Below are positions 1,880 to 18,868 of a stretch of 64,000 nucleotides of DNA, in pieces. Both the position numbers and the translations under genes were made by a program. Numbering within the stretch: position 1 is the first letter of the stretch; each line of letters opens with the position of its first letter. The notes under the pieces were generated by a model. It was given only the letters and a program-made list of their open reading frames with translations. It was not told the origin of the DNA and ran no database searches. Origin of the DNA: a virus; IMG/VR virus record IMGVR_UViG_3300021134_000001, positions 2,824-66,823 of that record; one strand, written 5' to 3'.

Positions 1880-1928
1880 ATCTAACTGATGAGTCCGTAA
1901 GGACGAAACCACGAAAGTGGTCTTAGAT
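1880..1928 (+). ncRNA. hammerhead ribozyme HH2 (type I), cut after C1922
   Basis: atctaa CTGATGA gtcc-gtaa-ggac GAAA ccac-gaaa-gtgg TC ttagat. Confidence 0.96.
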
Positions 1929-4319: not shown

Positions 4320-4736
4320 ATGACTGAACGATTTATTGTATTAAACCAAATCCGTACTCCTGATGGTACGATCTTACGCTCCATTAATCGACATGATTAC
4401 CGCACTTACATCGATAAGAATGGTAAGGAATATATGGTTGATGGTGGCACTGACTATCTTCGTCGTAACGTCCATGAAGACGCTCCATACGATGAGTTGT
4501 CTGTTTATTCTGACGATTCTTTCGATGTAATCAGGAGAAGTTTGCATTGGGGCACCTACGGTCCCAAAGGTGACCAAGCGAAGCGTTACGTTCCAATGGC
4601 TGAAATGTCAGACGATCACATTCGTGCGATCTTAGACACGCAGCCACAGGTGCAAGGCATTCTTCGCCAATGGTTTAAAGAAGAATTGAGATGCCGTGAA
4701 TGCGGTCTGTATGAATATGTAAAGGATACATTATGA
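4320..4736 (+). CDS. conserved phage hypothetical protein
   Basis: S..RHDY...VDGG.DYLRR motif typical of phage proteins. Confidence 0.7.
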   Translation: MTERFIVLNQIRTPDGTILRSINRHDYRTYIDKNGKEYMVDGGTDYLRRNVHEDAPYDELSVYSDDSFDVIRRSLHWGTYGPKGDQAKRYVPMAEMSDDHIRAILDTQPQVQGILRQWFKEELRCRECGLYEYVKDTL

Positions 4737-4960
4737 ACGTAAAAGATTTTGAAGTATTAAACCGCCGCTATGCGATCGACATTAATCGCTTTCGTGATGG
4801 ACAAGGATTGACAGTTGATCTATTCAACGCTCTTTTTGACTACTACTGCCAAGGCAATGAAATGCCTTATGGAGTGGCGAAGGCGAGAACAGGCGATCCA
4901 TATGAATGGATAGACTCTCACTTTGGAGATTTCTTAAAAGATTTTGACAACTCACCGTAA
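4733..4960 (+). CDS. hypothetical protein
   Basis: 75-aa ORF, MPYG.AKAR.GDPY motif. Confidence 0.7.
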   Translation: MNVKDFEVLNRRYAIDINRFRDGQGLTVDLFNALFDYYCQGNEMPYGVAKARTGDPYEWIDSHFGDFLKDFDNSP

Positions 4961-5030
4961 CTGATGAGCCGTGCATTCGGCGAAACTACTGTTGTGCAAA
5001 TCAATAACTTGCACGACAGTAGTCTTACGG
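4955..5030 (+). ncRNA. hammerhead ribozyme HH5 (type I, long stem III), cut after C5024
   Basis: ccgtaa CTGATGA gccg-tgcatt-cggc GAAA ctactgttgtgcaa...ttgcacgacagtag TC ttacgg. Confidence 0.95.
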
Positions 5031-5142
5031 CCACCGTTGGAGCCGCCATTACGGTAAACAACGACCTTGTATCAGTTGACTCCCTTTGTTGACGAAATAC
5101 GAGCGCTTTTGACAGGTTGAGCGGTAATCAATCTGTCCTGTA
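5025..5142 (+). ncRNA. putative 118-nt small RNA released by HH5 and HH6
   Basis: non-coding interval between two predicted cleavage sites; folds into three hairpins. Confidence 0.55.
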
Positions 5143-5188
5143 CATGGATGTGTGTCCATGCTGATGAGTTCTAAAGAACGAAACAGAC
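5135..5188 (+). ncRNA. hammerhead ribozyme HH6 (type III), cut after A5142 (GUA triplet)
   Basis: ctgT A catgga-tgtgtg-tccatg CTGATGA gttc-taaa-gaac GAAA cag; stems I and II closed, stem III open. Confidence 0.9.
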
Positions 5189-5207
5189 TTATTATAAAGG
5201 AAATAAA

Positions 5208-7498
5208 ATGGAATATACGAAACTTGAGGAACTGCAAGGCATTTTCTCTGATTTTCACAAAGATTACTACGGATTTAGACCACGCTTTGCTAGCGCTGAA
5301 GAGTGGAATAGCAAAGAATGGTTGCAATCGCAAATTGATAGCATTCATGATGCGATAAACTGTAGAGCTAAAACACCGCAAGGTAGAGCAGCACTACTCG
5401 CCGAAGGGTGGGTAATTAACGATGATATTATAAAGGAATAAATATTATGAAAGTATTAAACAATCCACAGGTGTATATGGAACCTGGCACTTACTACATT
5501 GGTGATTTATGCTACGTATTACAAGATTCATGGGATGAATTCTGTAAAATCACTATTAGTGGTGAGCAATGTCTTAGCGGCGGATTTAGGTTTGCTGATG
5601 GACGCGAATTCGTTTCATTTACCACTATCTATGGTGATGGCACTTATTATGACAAAGATGGTTTTCAATATCCAGTTGATGCAGGCTTAATTGGTTGCAT
5701 TAGAGTCCAAGATATGGACAATGTAGATATCGATGAAGCGTCTCACGATGGAAGAGTGCATGTATTTACTAAACCATTTATATGCGAAAAGGTTGATGGT
5801 GTCCTTTACTTTGGTAAAGTGGCCATCGATCTCGATCCAAGTGATTATAACGATGATGAAGAGGAGTATGACGATGAGTAAATTGTTAGAACAACTCGAA
5901 GAAGAGTTAGGACTTCCTGCATGGAAGATTTTAGAAATGCAAAGAGCAGAGATGGCTGATCCATCCGCTATGCGCATGAATTTTCTAAATGGTACGCTAT
6001 ACGCTACACATTACGCGTATAGTGATATCAATCCGTATGAAGTATTACGTGTTGTATCAGATAATTGCTTAGAAGTTCGCGCAATGCGACACGAAAACGA
6101 TCCAAATGACATGCCAACGTTTGTGCCAGGCGGCTTTAGCGTCATCTGCACTCACTTCGGCAGCCGTGTAATCACAGTCGATCCTAAAGGTAAAGTGTTT
6201 AAGATTCGCCGTACAAAGCGTAATCCTGAACGTTGGACATACAAAGGTATGCGCTTTGCATTAGACAAAGAGCCACGCGCTTACTACGATCACAACTTTT
6301 AATAAAAGGAATACTATGAAAATGAAACATGAAAGGCATGCTCAAAAGATGGCTGATGCCATGTATCTTAATTTTATGGAGAATTCCTTAGATTATGTTC
6401 GAGATTCGACAGCAACTAAGGATGGCTTCGACGATTTAGATGAGTATCTTAAAGTAGAAAACTATGCGATAACATTATTCGCAATTCAATTATTAAAGGA
6501 AATACATGATTATAAATAAACAAAGAACGGCCTCATGGGTCGCTACGCTTCCTACGCTCACCTCTGAAGAGGATAGGCTCGCTCTTGCAGCCATCAAGTC
6601 CACTGTAAAGTCGATCAACGACAACAATGCACGTGATGAGAAATGGCGCAAGCGTTTCGATAAACACTGTAATGAAGTTGGCTATCCTCGCTATCGTGTC
6701 ACCATTCGTGCTCGTGGGCCAGTCAATGGTTACAAGTACGGCTATGGTGGCTATTTGAAACTCGCTGGTGGTAGTCGTTTTGACATCTACATCCACGTGA
6801 GAGGGTAACATGCCTAAATTCAAAATCCCAAAGAAATACCAAAAGTATATCGATGAAGATTCGATTGACGTTTATCACGGTCTCGATAGTTCGACGTATT
6901 TTGTATGGTTACGCTATGGATATAGTTACGACTATGAAAATAGTGGTAGCCATAATCAAGGATACGACTCACTTAAAGAGGCGTTAGCTGGTCTTGAAGA
7001 CGTTTATCTCTGCAACTGCGCTGATTGCGCTAAAGAGCCGCGTGGCACTCCAGTAAAGGACCTAATGAATGCCTAAATTTGTCGTTTATGAAACTAAAGA
7101 GAATGGTAAGGATTATGTCCTTGCCACTGTCGAAGGTATGGCAGCTGCTATGAAAGAGCTGAAGCGCCGTAAGAAGTTGGTGAAAGAAACCTCTGTTGTC
7201 GGTATGCAAGACAAAGAGATTTACCTATTTATTAAAAAACATCAAGAAAAGGAAGCTAAGAAAAATGGCAACTAAACCAAACACAGTAAAGAAGCAAAAG
7301 AACGGTAACATTACTCGTAATGGTAAACCAAAAATTAAATCGTTAAGTGTTGCACAGATTCAAAAGCTAATCGATCAAGGAGCGCAAAAGAACGCGACAT
7401 CAAAGATCGGTAAGAAGATGGCGAAACTTAAGAATGCACTATGTGCTCGATTTAAGCCATTGATTGATAGCGATCCTATTGGTTTCCAACAAAGTTAA
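5208..7498 (+). CDS. cluster of small hypothetical early proteins (5208-5441, 5447-5881, ~5874-6302, 6316-6519, 6506-6808, 6810-7076, 7069-7275, ~7265-7498)
   Basis: tightly packed ORFs with AAGGA-type RBS. Confidence 0.7.
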
Positions 7499-7573
7499 AC
7501 TGATGAGTCCTTAATGGACGAAACAAGCGGTCACATATCCGACCAGGCGATAACGCTGCCGCTTGTCTTTAAC
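7494..7573 (+). ncRNA. hammerhead ribozyme HH7 (type I, insert in stem III), cut after C7567
   Basis: gttaaa CTGATGA gtcc-ttaat-ggac GAAA caagcgg...ccgcttg TC tttaac. Confidence 0.94.
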
Positions 7574-7621
7574 ACACGTATGGTATTCGCTATGCGTGAC
7601 TATATTATGAAAAGGAGATTT

Positions 7622-8458
7622 ATGAAAAGTAAAGAATTTACGCCAATGTTGGCGTCTGTATTTAAACCAGAAAAGTTGAAATTTCCTGCACTTGCATCGC
7701 GCAAATTGGACGGCATTCGCTGCATCGTTAGAGATGGCGTAGCGCTATCACGTAGCGGCAAGCCGATTCGCAATCAGTATATTCAAAGCGTCTTAGGACG
7801 TAAGGAATTCAATTGGTTGGATGGTGAGCTGATCGTTGGCGCGCCAAACGACCCAAAGGCGTTTTCCAACTCCACTTCAGGCGTAATGTCTGAAGATGGT
7901 GAGCCTGACTTCGTCTTTCACGTCTTTGACATCGCTGCTGAAGGCGCTGGCTTTGAGACTCGCTTAGCGGTTGCTAAAAGTATCGTTACGAAAGCAAAGA
8001 GCAAGCACTTGAAGATTGTCGAACACGTCAAGCTTACCTCACTAGGTGGCTTAGACATTATCGAAGAGAAGTGGTTGATGGAAGGATTTGAAGGTGTAAT
8101 GTTACGCTCTTTAGATGGCCCATACAAACTTGGTCGCTCTAGCGTAACTGAAGGTCACTTGTTGAAAGTGAAACGCTTTAGTGATGCGGAAGCCGAAATC
8201 ATTGGCTATGTCGAAGAGGTTACAACAAAAGATCGTACACCAAAGAATGCATTAGGTAAGTTTATTTGCCGTATGCCGAATGGTGTAGAGTTTGGCGTTG
8301 GTGGCGGCTTTAGTCGTGAAGAGCGTGAGAAATTTTGGAAGCAACGAAACAAAATGATCGGTCAAATCTGCAAGTACAAGTACTTTGAAGTAGGTATGAT
8401 CGAGGCTCCAAGATTCCCATCATTTATAGGTATTCGAGATAAGGAAGATATGTCATGA
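7622..8458 (+). CDS. ATP-dependent DNA ligase
   Basis: KLDGIR adenylation motif, LDGEL, EGVMLR, LLKVK, PRFP; start moved to ATG 7622 after AAGGAG. Confidence 0.93.
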   Translation: MKSKEFTPMLASVFKPEKLKFPALASRKLDGIRCIVRDGVALSRSGKPIRNQYIQSVLGRKEFNWLDGELIVGAPNDPKAFSNSTSGVMSEDGEPDFVFHVFDIAAEGAGFETRLAVAKSIVTKAKSKHLKIVEHVKLTSLGGLDIIEEKWLMEGFEGVMLRSLDGPYKLGRSSVTEGHLLKVKRFSDAEAEIIGYVEEVTTKDRTPKNALGKFICRMPNGVEFGVGGGFSREEREKFWKQRNKMIGQICKYKYFEVGMIEAPRFPSFIGIRDKEDMS

Positions 8459-18347: not shown

Positions 18348-18868
18348 AAGTGACCTACATCCATCGGCGTAATAGTGATAATAAAATCTTTTACGTCGGC
18401 TCAGGCTCTGTAACACGTCCTTACGATAAATGGAAACGTGATACCAGATGGAAAGAAATGGCTACTAATGGCTATTCGATTCAGATTGTGGATACTCACT
18501 CTACAAAGAAGAGCGCTGAAGAGTGCGAAGATTTGTTAATTGAGTTAGTACGCGAAATGCCAGCTAATATCCTTATCAATACTTCTACTAATAGCGAGAA
18601 TCGAAAGAAATCTCAAATAGCAGGAGGAAAGATAACAGGAAGTGTCCAAGGAAAACGTAATGTTGAATCTGGACATTTAGCCTCTATTCGATCGTCAGCA
18701 GGTAAGGCCTCTATTCAAACCCATGGCACTCAAATGGGCAACGGTGGCAGAGCACATACTGGCAAAAAGTGGTATACGAATGGCGTCAAAGATACGATGG
18801 CATTTACAGCACCATTGGGCTTTTATCTTGGACGAACTTCAAATCGAAAGGACGCAAAATGCGTTTAG
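18344..18868 (+). CDS. GIY-YIG-like homing endonuclease
   Basis: VTYIH...IFYVG..R, conserved Glu and Asn, KWYTNG tail. Confidence 0.7.
   Translation: MKVTYIHRRNSDNKIFYVGSGSVTRPYDKWKRDTRWKEMATNGYSIQIVDTHSTKKSAEECEDLLIELVREMPANILINTSTNSENRKKSQIAGGKITGSVQGKRNVESGHLASIRSSAGKASIQTHGTQMGNGGRAHTGKKWYTNGVKDTMAFTAPLGFYLGRTSNRKDAKCV

What the first reader, a model, noticed from the sequence alone, without database searches (positions are those of the whole stretch)
4955..5188. A type I plus type III hammerhead pair precisely brackets a 118-nt non-coding RNA
Seen: HH5 cuts near its own 3' end (after 5024) and HH6, the only type III copy, cuts near its own 5' end (after 5142), so most ribozyme sequence stays outside the released piece. 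The piece 5025-5142 has no ORF and folds into three hairpins: cgttg-ga-gccg/cggt-aaa-caacg; cttgta-tcagt/gttga-tacgag with loop UGACUCCCUUU; and gacaggttga/tcaatctgtc. Established: 5'-OH plus cyclic-phosphate ends are RtcB substrates, and ribozyme-cargo-ribozyme layouts are used in engineered circular RNA expression. Inference: a natural ribozyme-excised small RNA, possibly circularised. Its CUCCCUUU loop resembles an anti-Shine-Dalgarno sequence, suggesting translational regulation or a decoy role.
Basis: partly seen in the sequence, partly recalled or inferred. Interest (0 to 1): 0.85.

Follow-up and report, generated by a model that had tools for sequence, protein, structure and literature searches.

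The report
Hammerhead pair releasing conserved phage RNA
In a freshwater phage, two self-cutting hammerhead RNAs of opposite layout should release a conserved, folded 118-base non-coding RNA; it is a natural version of an engineered RNA-release design, its job is unknown, and nothing shows it forms a circle.

Summary
HH5 (type I, 4955-5030) should cut after C5024. HH6 (type III, about 5135-5189, the only type III among nine hammerheads in the window) should cut after A5142. This releases a 118-nt piece carrying only 6 and 5 nt of ribozyme strand.

The piece looks like a selected RNA, not a spacer.
- Its three hairpins recur in a second phage clade (125 nt, about 60% identical) at a different locus, again between a type I and a type III hammerhead.
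- Eleven base pairs change on both sides, while the loop CCCUUU and the linker GCUUUUG are kept.
- Within its own clade it is the best-conserved segment: 90-97% identity against 75-91% for neighbouring genes.
- Neighbouring genes and even HH5 are swapped around it.

The family is tiny: four sequence variants in public collections beside the window's own, found on seven contigs and in contigs of lake-metagenome runs. It has no Rfam match.

Circularisation and the anti-Shine-Dalgarno idea remain untested guesses. No RNA data exist, the record (59% complete) has no RNA ligase, the end-pairing is not conserved, and the phage has no complementary target.

Clustered phage hammerheads have been known since 2011, and this scan has met other ribozyme-flanked non-coding pieces on other DNA. 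I class it as a new variant of a known kind.

The parts
4733..4960 (+). Upstream 75-aa early gene of unknown function. Its TAA stop codon (4958-4960) lies in the 5' strand of HH5 stem I.
   Evidence: ORF list; sequence; no Pfam or PHROG family.
4955..5030 (+). HH5, a type I hammerhead. Stem I 4955-4960/5025-5030; core 4961-4967; stem II 4968-4981; GAAA 4982-4985; long stem III 4985-5023. It cuts after C5024.
   Evidence: Sequence; scripts; partial Rfam hammerhead match. In relatives stems II and III are replaced while the core is kept (L111; L005).
5025..5142 (+). Released 118-nt non-coding RNA: a 5' tail, three hairpins and a 3' tail.
   Evidence: Fold z -2.97. Covariance model hits in relatives. 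96.8% of pair cells paired, 11 pairs changed on both sides. It is the best-conserved segment of the locus.
5035..5063 (+). Hairpin 1: outer stem CGUUG/CAACG, inner stem GCCG/CGGU, variable loop.
   Evidence: All 5 outer pairs change on both sides in the L005 clade. The inner stem is rebuilt in L048.
5066..5103 (+). Hairpin 2: outer stem 5066-5072/5097-5103, inner stem 5075-5080/5088-5093, conserved loop UCCCUUU at 5081-5087.
   Evidence: Folds of both clades. The loop CCCUUU is invariant in 5 of 5 sequences while the stems change.
5104..5110 (+). Conserved single-stranded linker CGCUUUU. With G5111 it forms the motif GCUUUUG.
   Evidence: Alignment: GCUUU(U/C)G in all 5 sequences.
5111..5137 (+). 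Hairpin 3, stem of 10 pairs with loop GCGGUAA, directly upstream of HH6.
   Evidence: 3 pairs changed on both sides. Other phages also carry a hairpin just before a type III hammerhead of this kind.
5135..5189 (+). HH6, a type III hammerhead. Stem III CUGU/ACAG (5138-5141/5183-5186); cut after A5142; stem I 5143-5160; core 5161-5167; stem II 5168-5179.
   Evidence: Rfam RF00008, 35.3 bits. 97% of cells paired, with 24 cells changed on both sides, across 11 sequences. A compensatory variant pair 5170 T>C with 5177 A>G occurs in lake contigs.
5196..5441 (+). Ribosome site AAAGGA (5196-5201) and the downstream 77-aa gene (ATG at 5208). After the cut, its mRNA would start with the folded HH6.
   Evidence: This gene is replaced by other genes in L003, L106 and L098.

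Best explanation
The 118-nt piece is a stand-alone RNA gene occupying one 'gene slot' of a hammerhead-punctuated early operon.

Release. The operon is transcribed as a long RNA. HH5 folds using the first six bases of the piece as one strand of its stem I, and cuts after C5024. HH6 uses the last bases of the piece as one strand of its stem III, and cuts after A5142. Because the first ribozyme is type I and the second is type III, both ribozyme bodies stay on the neighbouring mRNAs: one as a 3' cap on the upstream message, one as a 5' cap on the downstream message.

Product. The piece leaves almost free of ribozyme sequence, with a 5'-OH and a 2',3'-cyclic phosphate. Those ends plus the terminal hairpin 3 should make it long-lived as a linear molecule.

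Action. It then acts in trans. Most likely it binds a host or phage factor through the invariant single-stranded UCCCUUU loop and the GCUUUUG linker.

Shown here by computation: the two ribozymes, their cut sites, the fold, its conservation with covariation, and its independence from the neighbouring genes.

Inferred: actual cleavage, the end chemistry (established hammerhead chemistry), stability, action in trans, and the binding role.
For: Ribozymes:
- Both have canonical cores and correctly placed stems.
- The HH6 family shows covariation in all three stems (97% of cells paired, 0 of 500 shuffles reach the covariation score, slid controls 21-41%).
- HH5 keeps its core while stems II and III are replaced in L111 and L005.

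Cargo structure:
- The model R1, built on three window-clade sequences, finds the divergent L004/L005/L098 copies at 41.9 bits, E 1.7e-9.
- It finds nothing else in 59 sources (400,834 bases).
- On 5 distinct sequences, 96.8% of 158 cells pair. Eleven of 32 pairs change on both sides (0 of 500 shuffles reach this). Slid controls give 31-52%.
- Independent folds of the window and L005 copies give the same three hairpins.
- Within the window clade, 5 of 7 variable pairs stay paired. The other two are register shifts in L048.

Conservation:
- The cargo is 96%, 90% and 97% identical to L003, L048 and L111, against 75-91% for four flanking genes.
- Lake-metagenome contigs carry only 5055 T>C (G-U to G-C), 5073 C>T (internal loop), 5124 G>A (loop) and 5142 A>C (cleavage-site base) inside the cargo. 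The coding sequence just upstream varies far more.

Independence from neighbours:
- The gene after HH6 differs in four contexts, one of them a homing endonuclease.
- In the L005 clade the whole module sits about 2.5 kb upstream of the 138-aa gene instead of downstream of it. The site syntenic with HH5 holds a lone type I hammerhead there.
- In the phage loci fetched by protein relatedness, type III hammerheads occur only next to this cargo. Type I to type III pairs within 500 nt occur only around it. The tally over all held loci is 87 type I and 21 type III, including redundant loci.
Against: - There are no RNA data at all: 0 of 24 listed runs are on record as RNA. Cleavage, abundance and ends are therefore unobserved.
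- HH6 scores below Rfam's gathering threshold in the window (35.3 against 48.5). HH5 is not found by RF00163.
- The covariation rests on essentially two lineages, since 4 of the 5 sequences are close relatives. No proper statistical test such as R-scape is possible. The alignment was fitted to the model, which leans towards the structure.
- High identity could partly reflect recent exchange at a recombination-prone junction rather than selection.
- Other phages have a hairpin plus a type III hammerhead of the same kind after a stop codon, without a type I partner. Hairpin 3 may therefore belong to the mRNA-processing module rather than to a separate RNA.
- No partner, target or known RNA family was found.
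Confidence: 0.55

Rival explanations
1. The piece is a processing by-product or cis-acting spacer. Its hairpins only help the two ribozymes fold independently and give the neighbouring mRNAs protected ends. Hairpin 3 plus HH6 would form a 5'-UTR insulator module, and the excised piece itself would have no job.
For: Clustered hammerheads that cut phage polycistronic RNAs into gene-length pieces are the published reading (Perreault et al. 2011, PMC3088659, passages read). The other seven junction hammerheads in the window sit between a stop codon and the next ribosome site. Other phages have a hairpin plus the same type III hammerhead upstream of a ribosome site with no type I partner. The engineered insulator RiboJ works this way (recalled, not checked in any call).
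Against: The seven other junctions in the same operon manage with one type I hammerhead and no spacer. So does the syntenic site in the L005 clade. Hairpins 1 and 2, an invariant loop and an invariant linker are kept across two clades and four gene contexts, and are better conserved than the genes. A mere spacer should drift.
Confidence: 0.25
2. The excised piece is circularised by a host RtcB-type ligase and acts as a circular RNA.
For: Hammerhead cleavage gives a 5'-OH and a 2',3'-cyclic phosphate, which are RtcB substrates (established chemistry, recalled). In the window copy the two ends pair (positions 2-6 with 114-118). The near-scarless release resembles engineered circular-RNA cassettes.
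Against: The end pairing does not appear in the predicted folds of the L074 and L005 copies. Neither Pfam RtcB nor the RNA_ligase family was found in the record, which is 59% complete; the RNA_lig_T4_1 search is uninformative because its controls did not ring either. Perreault et al. looked for circular or spliced products of clustered bacterial hammerheads and reported none detected ('data not shown', passage). The end chemistry and hairpin 3 already protect a linear molecule.
Confidence: 0.12
3. The UCCCUUU loop acts as an anti-Shine-Dalgarno sequence. It would either mask the downstream ribosome site in cis until HH6 cuts, or titrate ribosome sites or mimic the 16S rRNA tail in trans.
For: The loop is invariant in 5 of 5 sequences. 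It can pair 5 bp (CCUUU with AAAGG) with the phage's usual early ribosome site AAAGGA.
Against: The CUCC part is not conserved: L005 has AUCCCUUUA. In L005 and L098 the downstream sites are UAAGGAG and UUGGAG, which give 4 bp or fewer. The full complement AAAGGGA does not occur on the sense strand (0 found against 5.3 expected). Five base pairs give no specificity in trans.
Confidence: 0.07

Closest known systems
Clustered hammerhead ribozymes flanking genes in prophage and phage transcripts (Perreault et al. 2011, PLoS Comput Biol, PMC3088659; passages read, supplements not seen)
   Same: Several same-strand hammerheads at gene junctions of a phage operon. The proposed role is cutting long transcripts into gene-length RNAs. 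Circular or spliced products were considered in that paper but not detected.
   Different: Here one 'slot' between two ribozymes holds a conserved structured non-coding RNA instead of a gene. The two ribozymes are of opposite topology (type I then type III), so the piece carries almost no ribozyme sequence.
Engineered ribozyme-cargo-ribozyme release cassettes (hammerhead-guide RNA-HDV 'RGR' designs; twister-based circular RNA expression). Recalled from general knowledge, not checked in a call.
   Same: The 5' ribozyme pairs with the first bases of the cargo and cuts at its own 3' end. The 3' ribozyme cuts at its own 5' end. The cargo leaves with defined 5'-OH and 2',3'-cyclic phosphate ends.
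   Different: This one is natural and phage-encoded, both ribozymes are hammerheads, and the purpose of the cargo is unknown. Ligation into a circle is not shown.
Other ribozyme-flanked non-coding pieces met by this scan on other DNA (e1-6124209: twister pair around about 290 nt; e1-6117392: hammerhead pair around 328 nt; e1-887222: twin type III hammerheads 314 nt apart)
   Same: A pair of self-cleaving ribozymes around a conserved non-coding stretch. Two of the three notes concern aquatic phages and the third an uncultured bacterium. No evidence for circles in any of them.
   Different: The cargo is different and much shorter. The layout is a mixed type I plus type III pair. I did not re-test those notes.
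Retrozymes and viroid-like circular RNAs with hammerheads (review PMC6765202, passages read; PMC7761336, listing only)
   Same: Hammerhead-bounded non-coding RNA; a type III hammerhead whose stem I and loop resemble those of small circular satellite-like records (L099, L100).
   Different: There is no repeat of one ribozyme at both ends, no LTR, primer-binding site or polypurine tract, and no rolling-circle logic. It is a single copy in a dsDNA phage operon, and no hammerhead forms across a joined junction.

Membership tests
Hammerhead ribozyme type III (Rfam RF00008): HH6 | Conserved core CUGANGA...GAAA with an A15.1-U16.1 pair and a non-G base at the cleavage site | tested here: met
   CUGAUGA 5161-5167, GAAA 5180-5183, U5141-A5183, A5142 at the site. 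The site base is C in L003, L048 and L111.
Hammerhead ribozyme type III (Rfam RF00008): HH6 | Stems I and II closed by loops, stem III open, all supported by covariation | tested here: met
   11 sequences, 97% of 165 cells paired, 6 pairs and 24 cells changed on both sides, slid controls 21-41%.
Hammerhead ribozyme type III (Rfam RF00008): HH6 | Score at or above Rfam's gathering threshold (48.5 bits) | tested here: not met
   35.3 bits in the window; 47.8 bits for the L005 copy. The shortfall comes from short stems III and II, not from the core.
Hammerhead ribozyme type III (Rfam RF00008): HH6 | Self-cleavage activity | not testable with these tools
   No RNA runs are available; an in vitro transcription assay is needed.
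Hammerhead ribozyme type I (Rfam RF00163): HH5 | Core plus an open stem I, with stems II and III closed by loops | tested here: met
   Sequence; scripts. The equivalent ribozyme in L005 scores 30 bits, E 1e-5. Stems covary between window, L111 and L005.
Hammerhead ribozyme type I (Rfam RF00163): HH5 | Score at or above Rfam's gathering threshold (34 bits) | tested here: not met
   RF00163 reports no match at 4955-5030. The long stem III (14 pairs plus an 11-nt loop) does not fit the model. RF03152 matches partly at 24.7 bits.
Clustered phage hammerheads that process polycistronic mRNA (Perreault 2011) | Several co-oriented hammerheads at gene boundaries of a phage operon | tested here: met
   Nine on the + strand between 464 and 16199; most type I copies have the upstream stop codon in or just before stem I and a ribosome site soon after the cut.
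Natural circular RNA made by ribozymes plus ligase | A covalent 3'-to-5' junction of the excised piece | not testable with these tools
   No RNA run. Indirect signs are weak or negative.
Any described RNA family for the cargo (Rfam 15) | A match of 5025-5142 or of the L005 copy to a curated model | tested here: not met
   No model matches the cargo interior at E up to 10 in small-stretch searches; the one overlap, ES036 at 4991-5023, lies in HH5 stem III.
Anti-Shine-Dalgarno regulatory RNA | Conserved complementarity to ribosome sites or a defined target | tested here: inconclusive
   At most 5 bp to AAAGGA; no AAAGGGA on the sense strand; the CUCC part is not conserved.

The most novel reading that the evidence does not exclude
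A phage has evolved the same scarless ribozyme-cargo-ribozyme design that engineers use. It would produce an early, chemically end-protected (or RtcB-circularised) trans-acting RNA that disables a host factor. Examples would be a decoy for a defence or RNA-repair sensor of cyclic-phosphate RNA ends, or a mimic of the 16S rRNA tail. The 'cargo plus type III hammerhead' unit would move between hammerhead-marked gene junctions as a mobile RNA-gene cassette.
Probability: 0.15. Interest if true: 0.85.

Novelty: new variant of a known kind. Interest (0 to 1): 0.58.

Why it matters
What hammerheads do in bacteria and phages has been an open question since 2011. The only proposal has been mRNA trimming. 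Here the thing between two ribozymes is not a gene but a small, conserved, folded RNA. The choice of a type I then a type III ribozyme looks tailored to release it cleanly.

That would give self-cleaving ribozymes a second natural job: maturation of a small RNA with unusual end chemistry. It also offers a compact 235-nt construct on which cleavage, end protection, possible ligation and the RNA's partner can all be tested directly. A natural scarless-release cassette may also interest RNA engineers.

Tried and rejected
Searches for relatives and for known families
- A nucleotide search of the locus against deposited phage genomes found no match.
- Rfam at gathering and at E up to 10 found no family for the cargo, on the whole window and on small stretches of the window and L005.
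- I tried five exact-pattern scans of IMG/VR, one of JGI metagenomes and one of GTDB genomes.
  - The 16-mer scan gave 42 stretches. Only the 3 already-known contigs were real by blastn.
  - The metagenome scan gave 4 stretches, of which 1 was real (L111).
  - The genome scan gave 5 stretches, of which 0 were real.
  - The two architecture patterns re-found the same 5 contigs.
  - The family therefore stays at five distinct sequences in two clades, too few for a significance test of covariation.

RNA evidence
- No RNA holder is listed among the 24 runs. Expression, ends and circles could not be examined.
- Only DNA contigs of 4 runs were laid, and they say nothing about RNA.

Other checks that gave nothing
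- An RNA ligase in the phage record: RtcB and RNA_ligase gave no match. The RNA_lig_T4_1 search is uninformative because its controls did not ring either.
- A complementary target for the loop: none.
- Sigma-70 promoter or intrinsic terminator inside the piece: none on the + strand between 4955 and 5189.
- Neighbouring proteins: no informative family.

Readings I considered and rejected
- An HH6 cut after C5137 (GUC). This would leave five unpaired bases between the site and stem I, and Rfam's alignment places the site at A5142.
- A peptide encoded in the piece. The 42-aa ORF starts inside the HH5 core, and the copies differ by non-triplet indels.
- CRISPR-repeat, ToxI-like, tRNA-like or K-turn readings. 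There is no Rfam or ARAGORN support, and the internal loops are not conserved.

Literature
- Five searches found no paper describing a type I plus type III hammerhead pair around a non-coding RNA in a phage.
- I read passages of PMC3088659 and PMC6765202. The other papers I saw only as listings and abstract starts.
- Supplements, such as the figures of Perreault et al. with gene contexts, were not seen and may hold similar layouts.

Full report
What the window is. The window is bases 2824-66823 of a 66.8-kb IMG/VR virus record, estimated 59% complete. DNA runs that hold it are freshwater and lake metagenomes. No deposited phage genome matches the locus at nucleotide level. The + strand of the first 16 kb is a run of small genes of unknown function, interrupted by hammerhead ribozymes.

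The observation. A motif script on the whole record found nine + strand hammerheads with a complete CUGAUGA...GAAA core and a paired stem II, plus one weak in-gene match at 18516. A second script that also checks stems I and III called eight of them type I and one type III. It placed the cuts of the two in question after 5024 and after 5142.

Rfam supports four type I copies at or near threshold. It supports the type III copy at 5135-5189 with 35.3 bits (gathering score 48.5). E is 7.2e-4 for the window and 3e-6 for a 271-nt search.

HH5 is missed by the type I model because its stem III is long (14 pairs plus an 11-nt loop). Read by eye it is canonical. Its equivalents in relatives keep the core while stems II and III are exchanged.

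For HH6, 11 distinct sequences from this and other phages pair in 97% of 165 cells, with 24 cells changed on both sides. Controls with the partner slid by 1-3 columns give 21-41%. Lake contigs add a compensatory pair, 5170 T>C with 5177 A>G. Both ribozymes are therefore genuine, and the 118-nt interval 5025-5142 is correctly delimited.

The released piece. It folds with z = -2.97 into a 5' tail, three hairpins and a 3' tail. The same elements appear when the whole 246-nt region is folded together with both ribozymes.

Relatives were fetched through flanking proteins and through exact patterns. They give four further distinct versions:
- L003/L059;
- L002 plus L048, which are two contigs that break inside the region;
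- L111;
- a divergent 125-nt version shared by L004, L005, L098, L102 and L106.

A covariance model built on the three close sequences finds the divergent version at 41.9 bits, E 1.7e-9. It finds nothing else in 400,834 bases of related phage DNA.

On the five distinct sequences, 96.8% of 158 cells pair and 11 of 32 pairs change on both sides. All five outer pairs of hairpin 1 do so. No shuffle of 500 reaches these values, and slid controls give 31-52%. The L005 copy folds on its own into the same three hairpins.

The hairpin-2 loop CCCUUU and the linker GCUUUUG stay constant while the stems around them change. The caveats are real: there are effectively two lineages, and the alignment was fitted to the model.

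Selection or spacer. Three observations argue that the piece is more than filler.
- It is the best-conserved segment of the locus in every comparison. It is 96%, 90% and 97% identical in L003, L048 and L111, against 75-91% for four neighbouring genes.
- In lake contigs only four positions vary. They are a wobble-to-Watson-Crick change, two unpaired bases and the cleavage-site base.
- Within the clade, 5 of 7 variable pairs stay paired, and the other two are register shifts in L048.

Its surroundings are also fluid.
- HH5 in L111 has a different stem II and a 4-pair stem III.
- The gene after HH6 differs between four contexts: window/L048/L111, L003, L106 and L098. In L003 it is a homing endonuclease (NUMOD3, phrog_314).
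- In the L005 clade the whole type I - cargo - type III module lies about 2.5 kb upstream of the 138-aa gene rather than just downstream of it.
- In that clade the position syntenic with HH5 carries a lone type I hammerhead followed by a ribosome site.

Finally, in the phages fetched by relatedness, type III hammerheads occur only beside this cargo. Type I to type III pairs within 500 nt occur only around it.

How it most likely works. The other junction hammerheads of the operon are type I. In most of them the upstream stop codon lies in or just before stem I, and the next ribosome site follows soon after the cut. After cleavage each message keeps a folded ribozyme and a cyclic phosphate at its 3' end.

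In the cargo slot the downstream ribozyme is type III, so its body goes to the next message instead. The piece leaves with only 6 and 5 nt of ribozyme strand. By established hammerhead chemistry it has a 5'-OH and a 2',3'-cyclic phosphate. With hairpin 3 next to the 3' end, it should resist end-dependent decay as a linear molecule.

Because the neighbouring genes vary, action in trans is more likely than gene-specific control in cis. The invariant single-stranded UCCCUUU and GCUUUUG are the obvious contact surfaces. The binding role is inference; I found no partner.

Rivals.
- A pure processing spacer or insulator remains possible (0.25). Other phages have a hairpin plus the same type III hammerhead ahead of a ribosome site without a type I partner, so hairpin 3 may belong to that module.
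- Circularisation (0.12) has no positive evidence. The end pairing seen in the window copy does not appear in the predicted folds of the L074 and L005 copies. No RtcB or RNA_ligase family is in the incomplete record, and the T4 Rnl1 search was uninformative. Perreault et al. reported not detecting circles from clustered hammerheads.
- The anti-Shine-Dalgarno idea (0.07) rests on 5 bp. The full complement is absent from the sense strand, and the CUCC part is not conserved.

Comparison with what is known. The setting is a member of the clustered phage hammerheads described in 2011 (PMC3088659, passages read). A 2019 review still lists the bacterial function of these ribozymes as unresolved (PMC6765202, passage read).

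What differs is the content of the slot and the mixed topology, which works like engineered ribozyme-cargo-ribozyme release cassettes (recalled). The cargo matches no Rfam family.

Five literature searches found no description of such a pair. Supplements were closed. This scan has already noted ribozyme pairs around other non-coding pieces on other DNA, so the theme is not unique. I did not re-test those notes.

Verdict. This is a new variant of a known kind, of moderate to good interest. It is a compact, testable case in which hammerheads appear to mature a small RNA rather than an mRNA.

Noticed in passing
L003:3892-4461 (+), directly after the HH6 homologue: In L003 the 77-aa gene that follows HH6 in the window is replaced by a 189-190-aa homing endonuclease gene (NUMOD3, phrog_314). 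The ribozyme and ribosome-site junction seems to be an insertion and recombination hotspot.
   Followed up: partly
L111:1425-1474 (-), equivalent to window 4954-5030: HH5 in L111 has the same stem I and core but a different stem II (GCUC/GAGC), a 4-pair stem III and a GUA site. The cargo next to it is 97% identical to the window's, so the ribozyme was swapped around a fixed cargo.
   Followed up: partly
L002 3' end (cargo position 108) and L048 5' end (inside HH5 stem III): Two contigs from one metagenome end and begin inside this region and overlap by about 110 nt. This assembly break may reflect strain variants of the flanks.
   Followed up: no
window 5110-5217; loose ends at 5140 and 5184 in runs X8 and X11: Contigs of very high depth (bins up to 160 and 398) match only the HH6 stem I to GAAA stretch and then run on into unrelated sequence. 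A type III hammerhead with this stem I therefore occurs in other, abundant lake organisms.
   Followed up: no
L099 (366 nt) and L100 (377 nt), whole records: Two tiny IMG/VR records carry a type III hammerhead with almost the same stem I and loop (UGGAUGUGUAUCCA). Their size recalls plant-virus circular satellite RNAs, which is recalled and was not checked.
   Followed up: no
window 5143-5210: Weak match to Rfam 'freshwater-2 RNA' (RF02980, 19.9 bits, E 0.59) over HH6 plus the ribosome site. The consensus of that motif is a hairpin, then CU..., then ...GAAC..., then AAAGGAG and AUG. It may overlap hammerhead-plus-ribosome-site leaders of this kind.
   Followed up: no
window 7494-7567 and ORF 7514-8458: The mechanical start of the ATP-dependent DNA ligase ORF (ATG 7514) lies inside hammerhead HH7, which cuts after 7567. 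The Pfam and PHROG matches begin at residues 44 and 32. The real start is probably downstream of the cut.
   Followed up: no
window 1880-1928 and 2456-2504; L005 399-469, 1020-1071, 1869-1918: Type I hammerheads with identical stem I (AUCUAA/UUAGAU) and stem II recur at several junctions within and between phages, differing mainly in stem III. This fits ribozyme plus ribosome-site units acting as portable homology for gene shuffling.
   Followed up: partly
window 18516-18557: A CUGAAGA...GAAA match with only a 3-pair stem II lies inside a gene. It is probably a chance match and not a tenth hammerhead.
   Followed up: no
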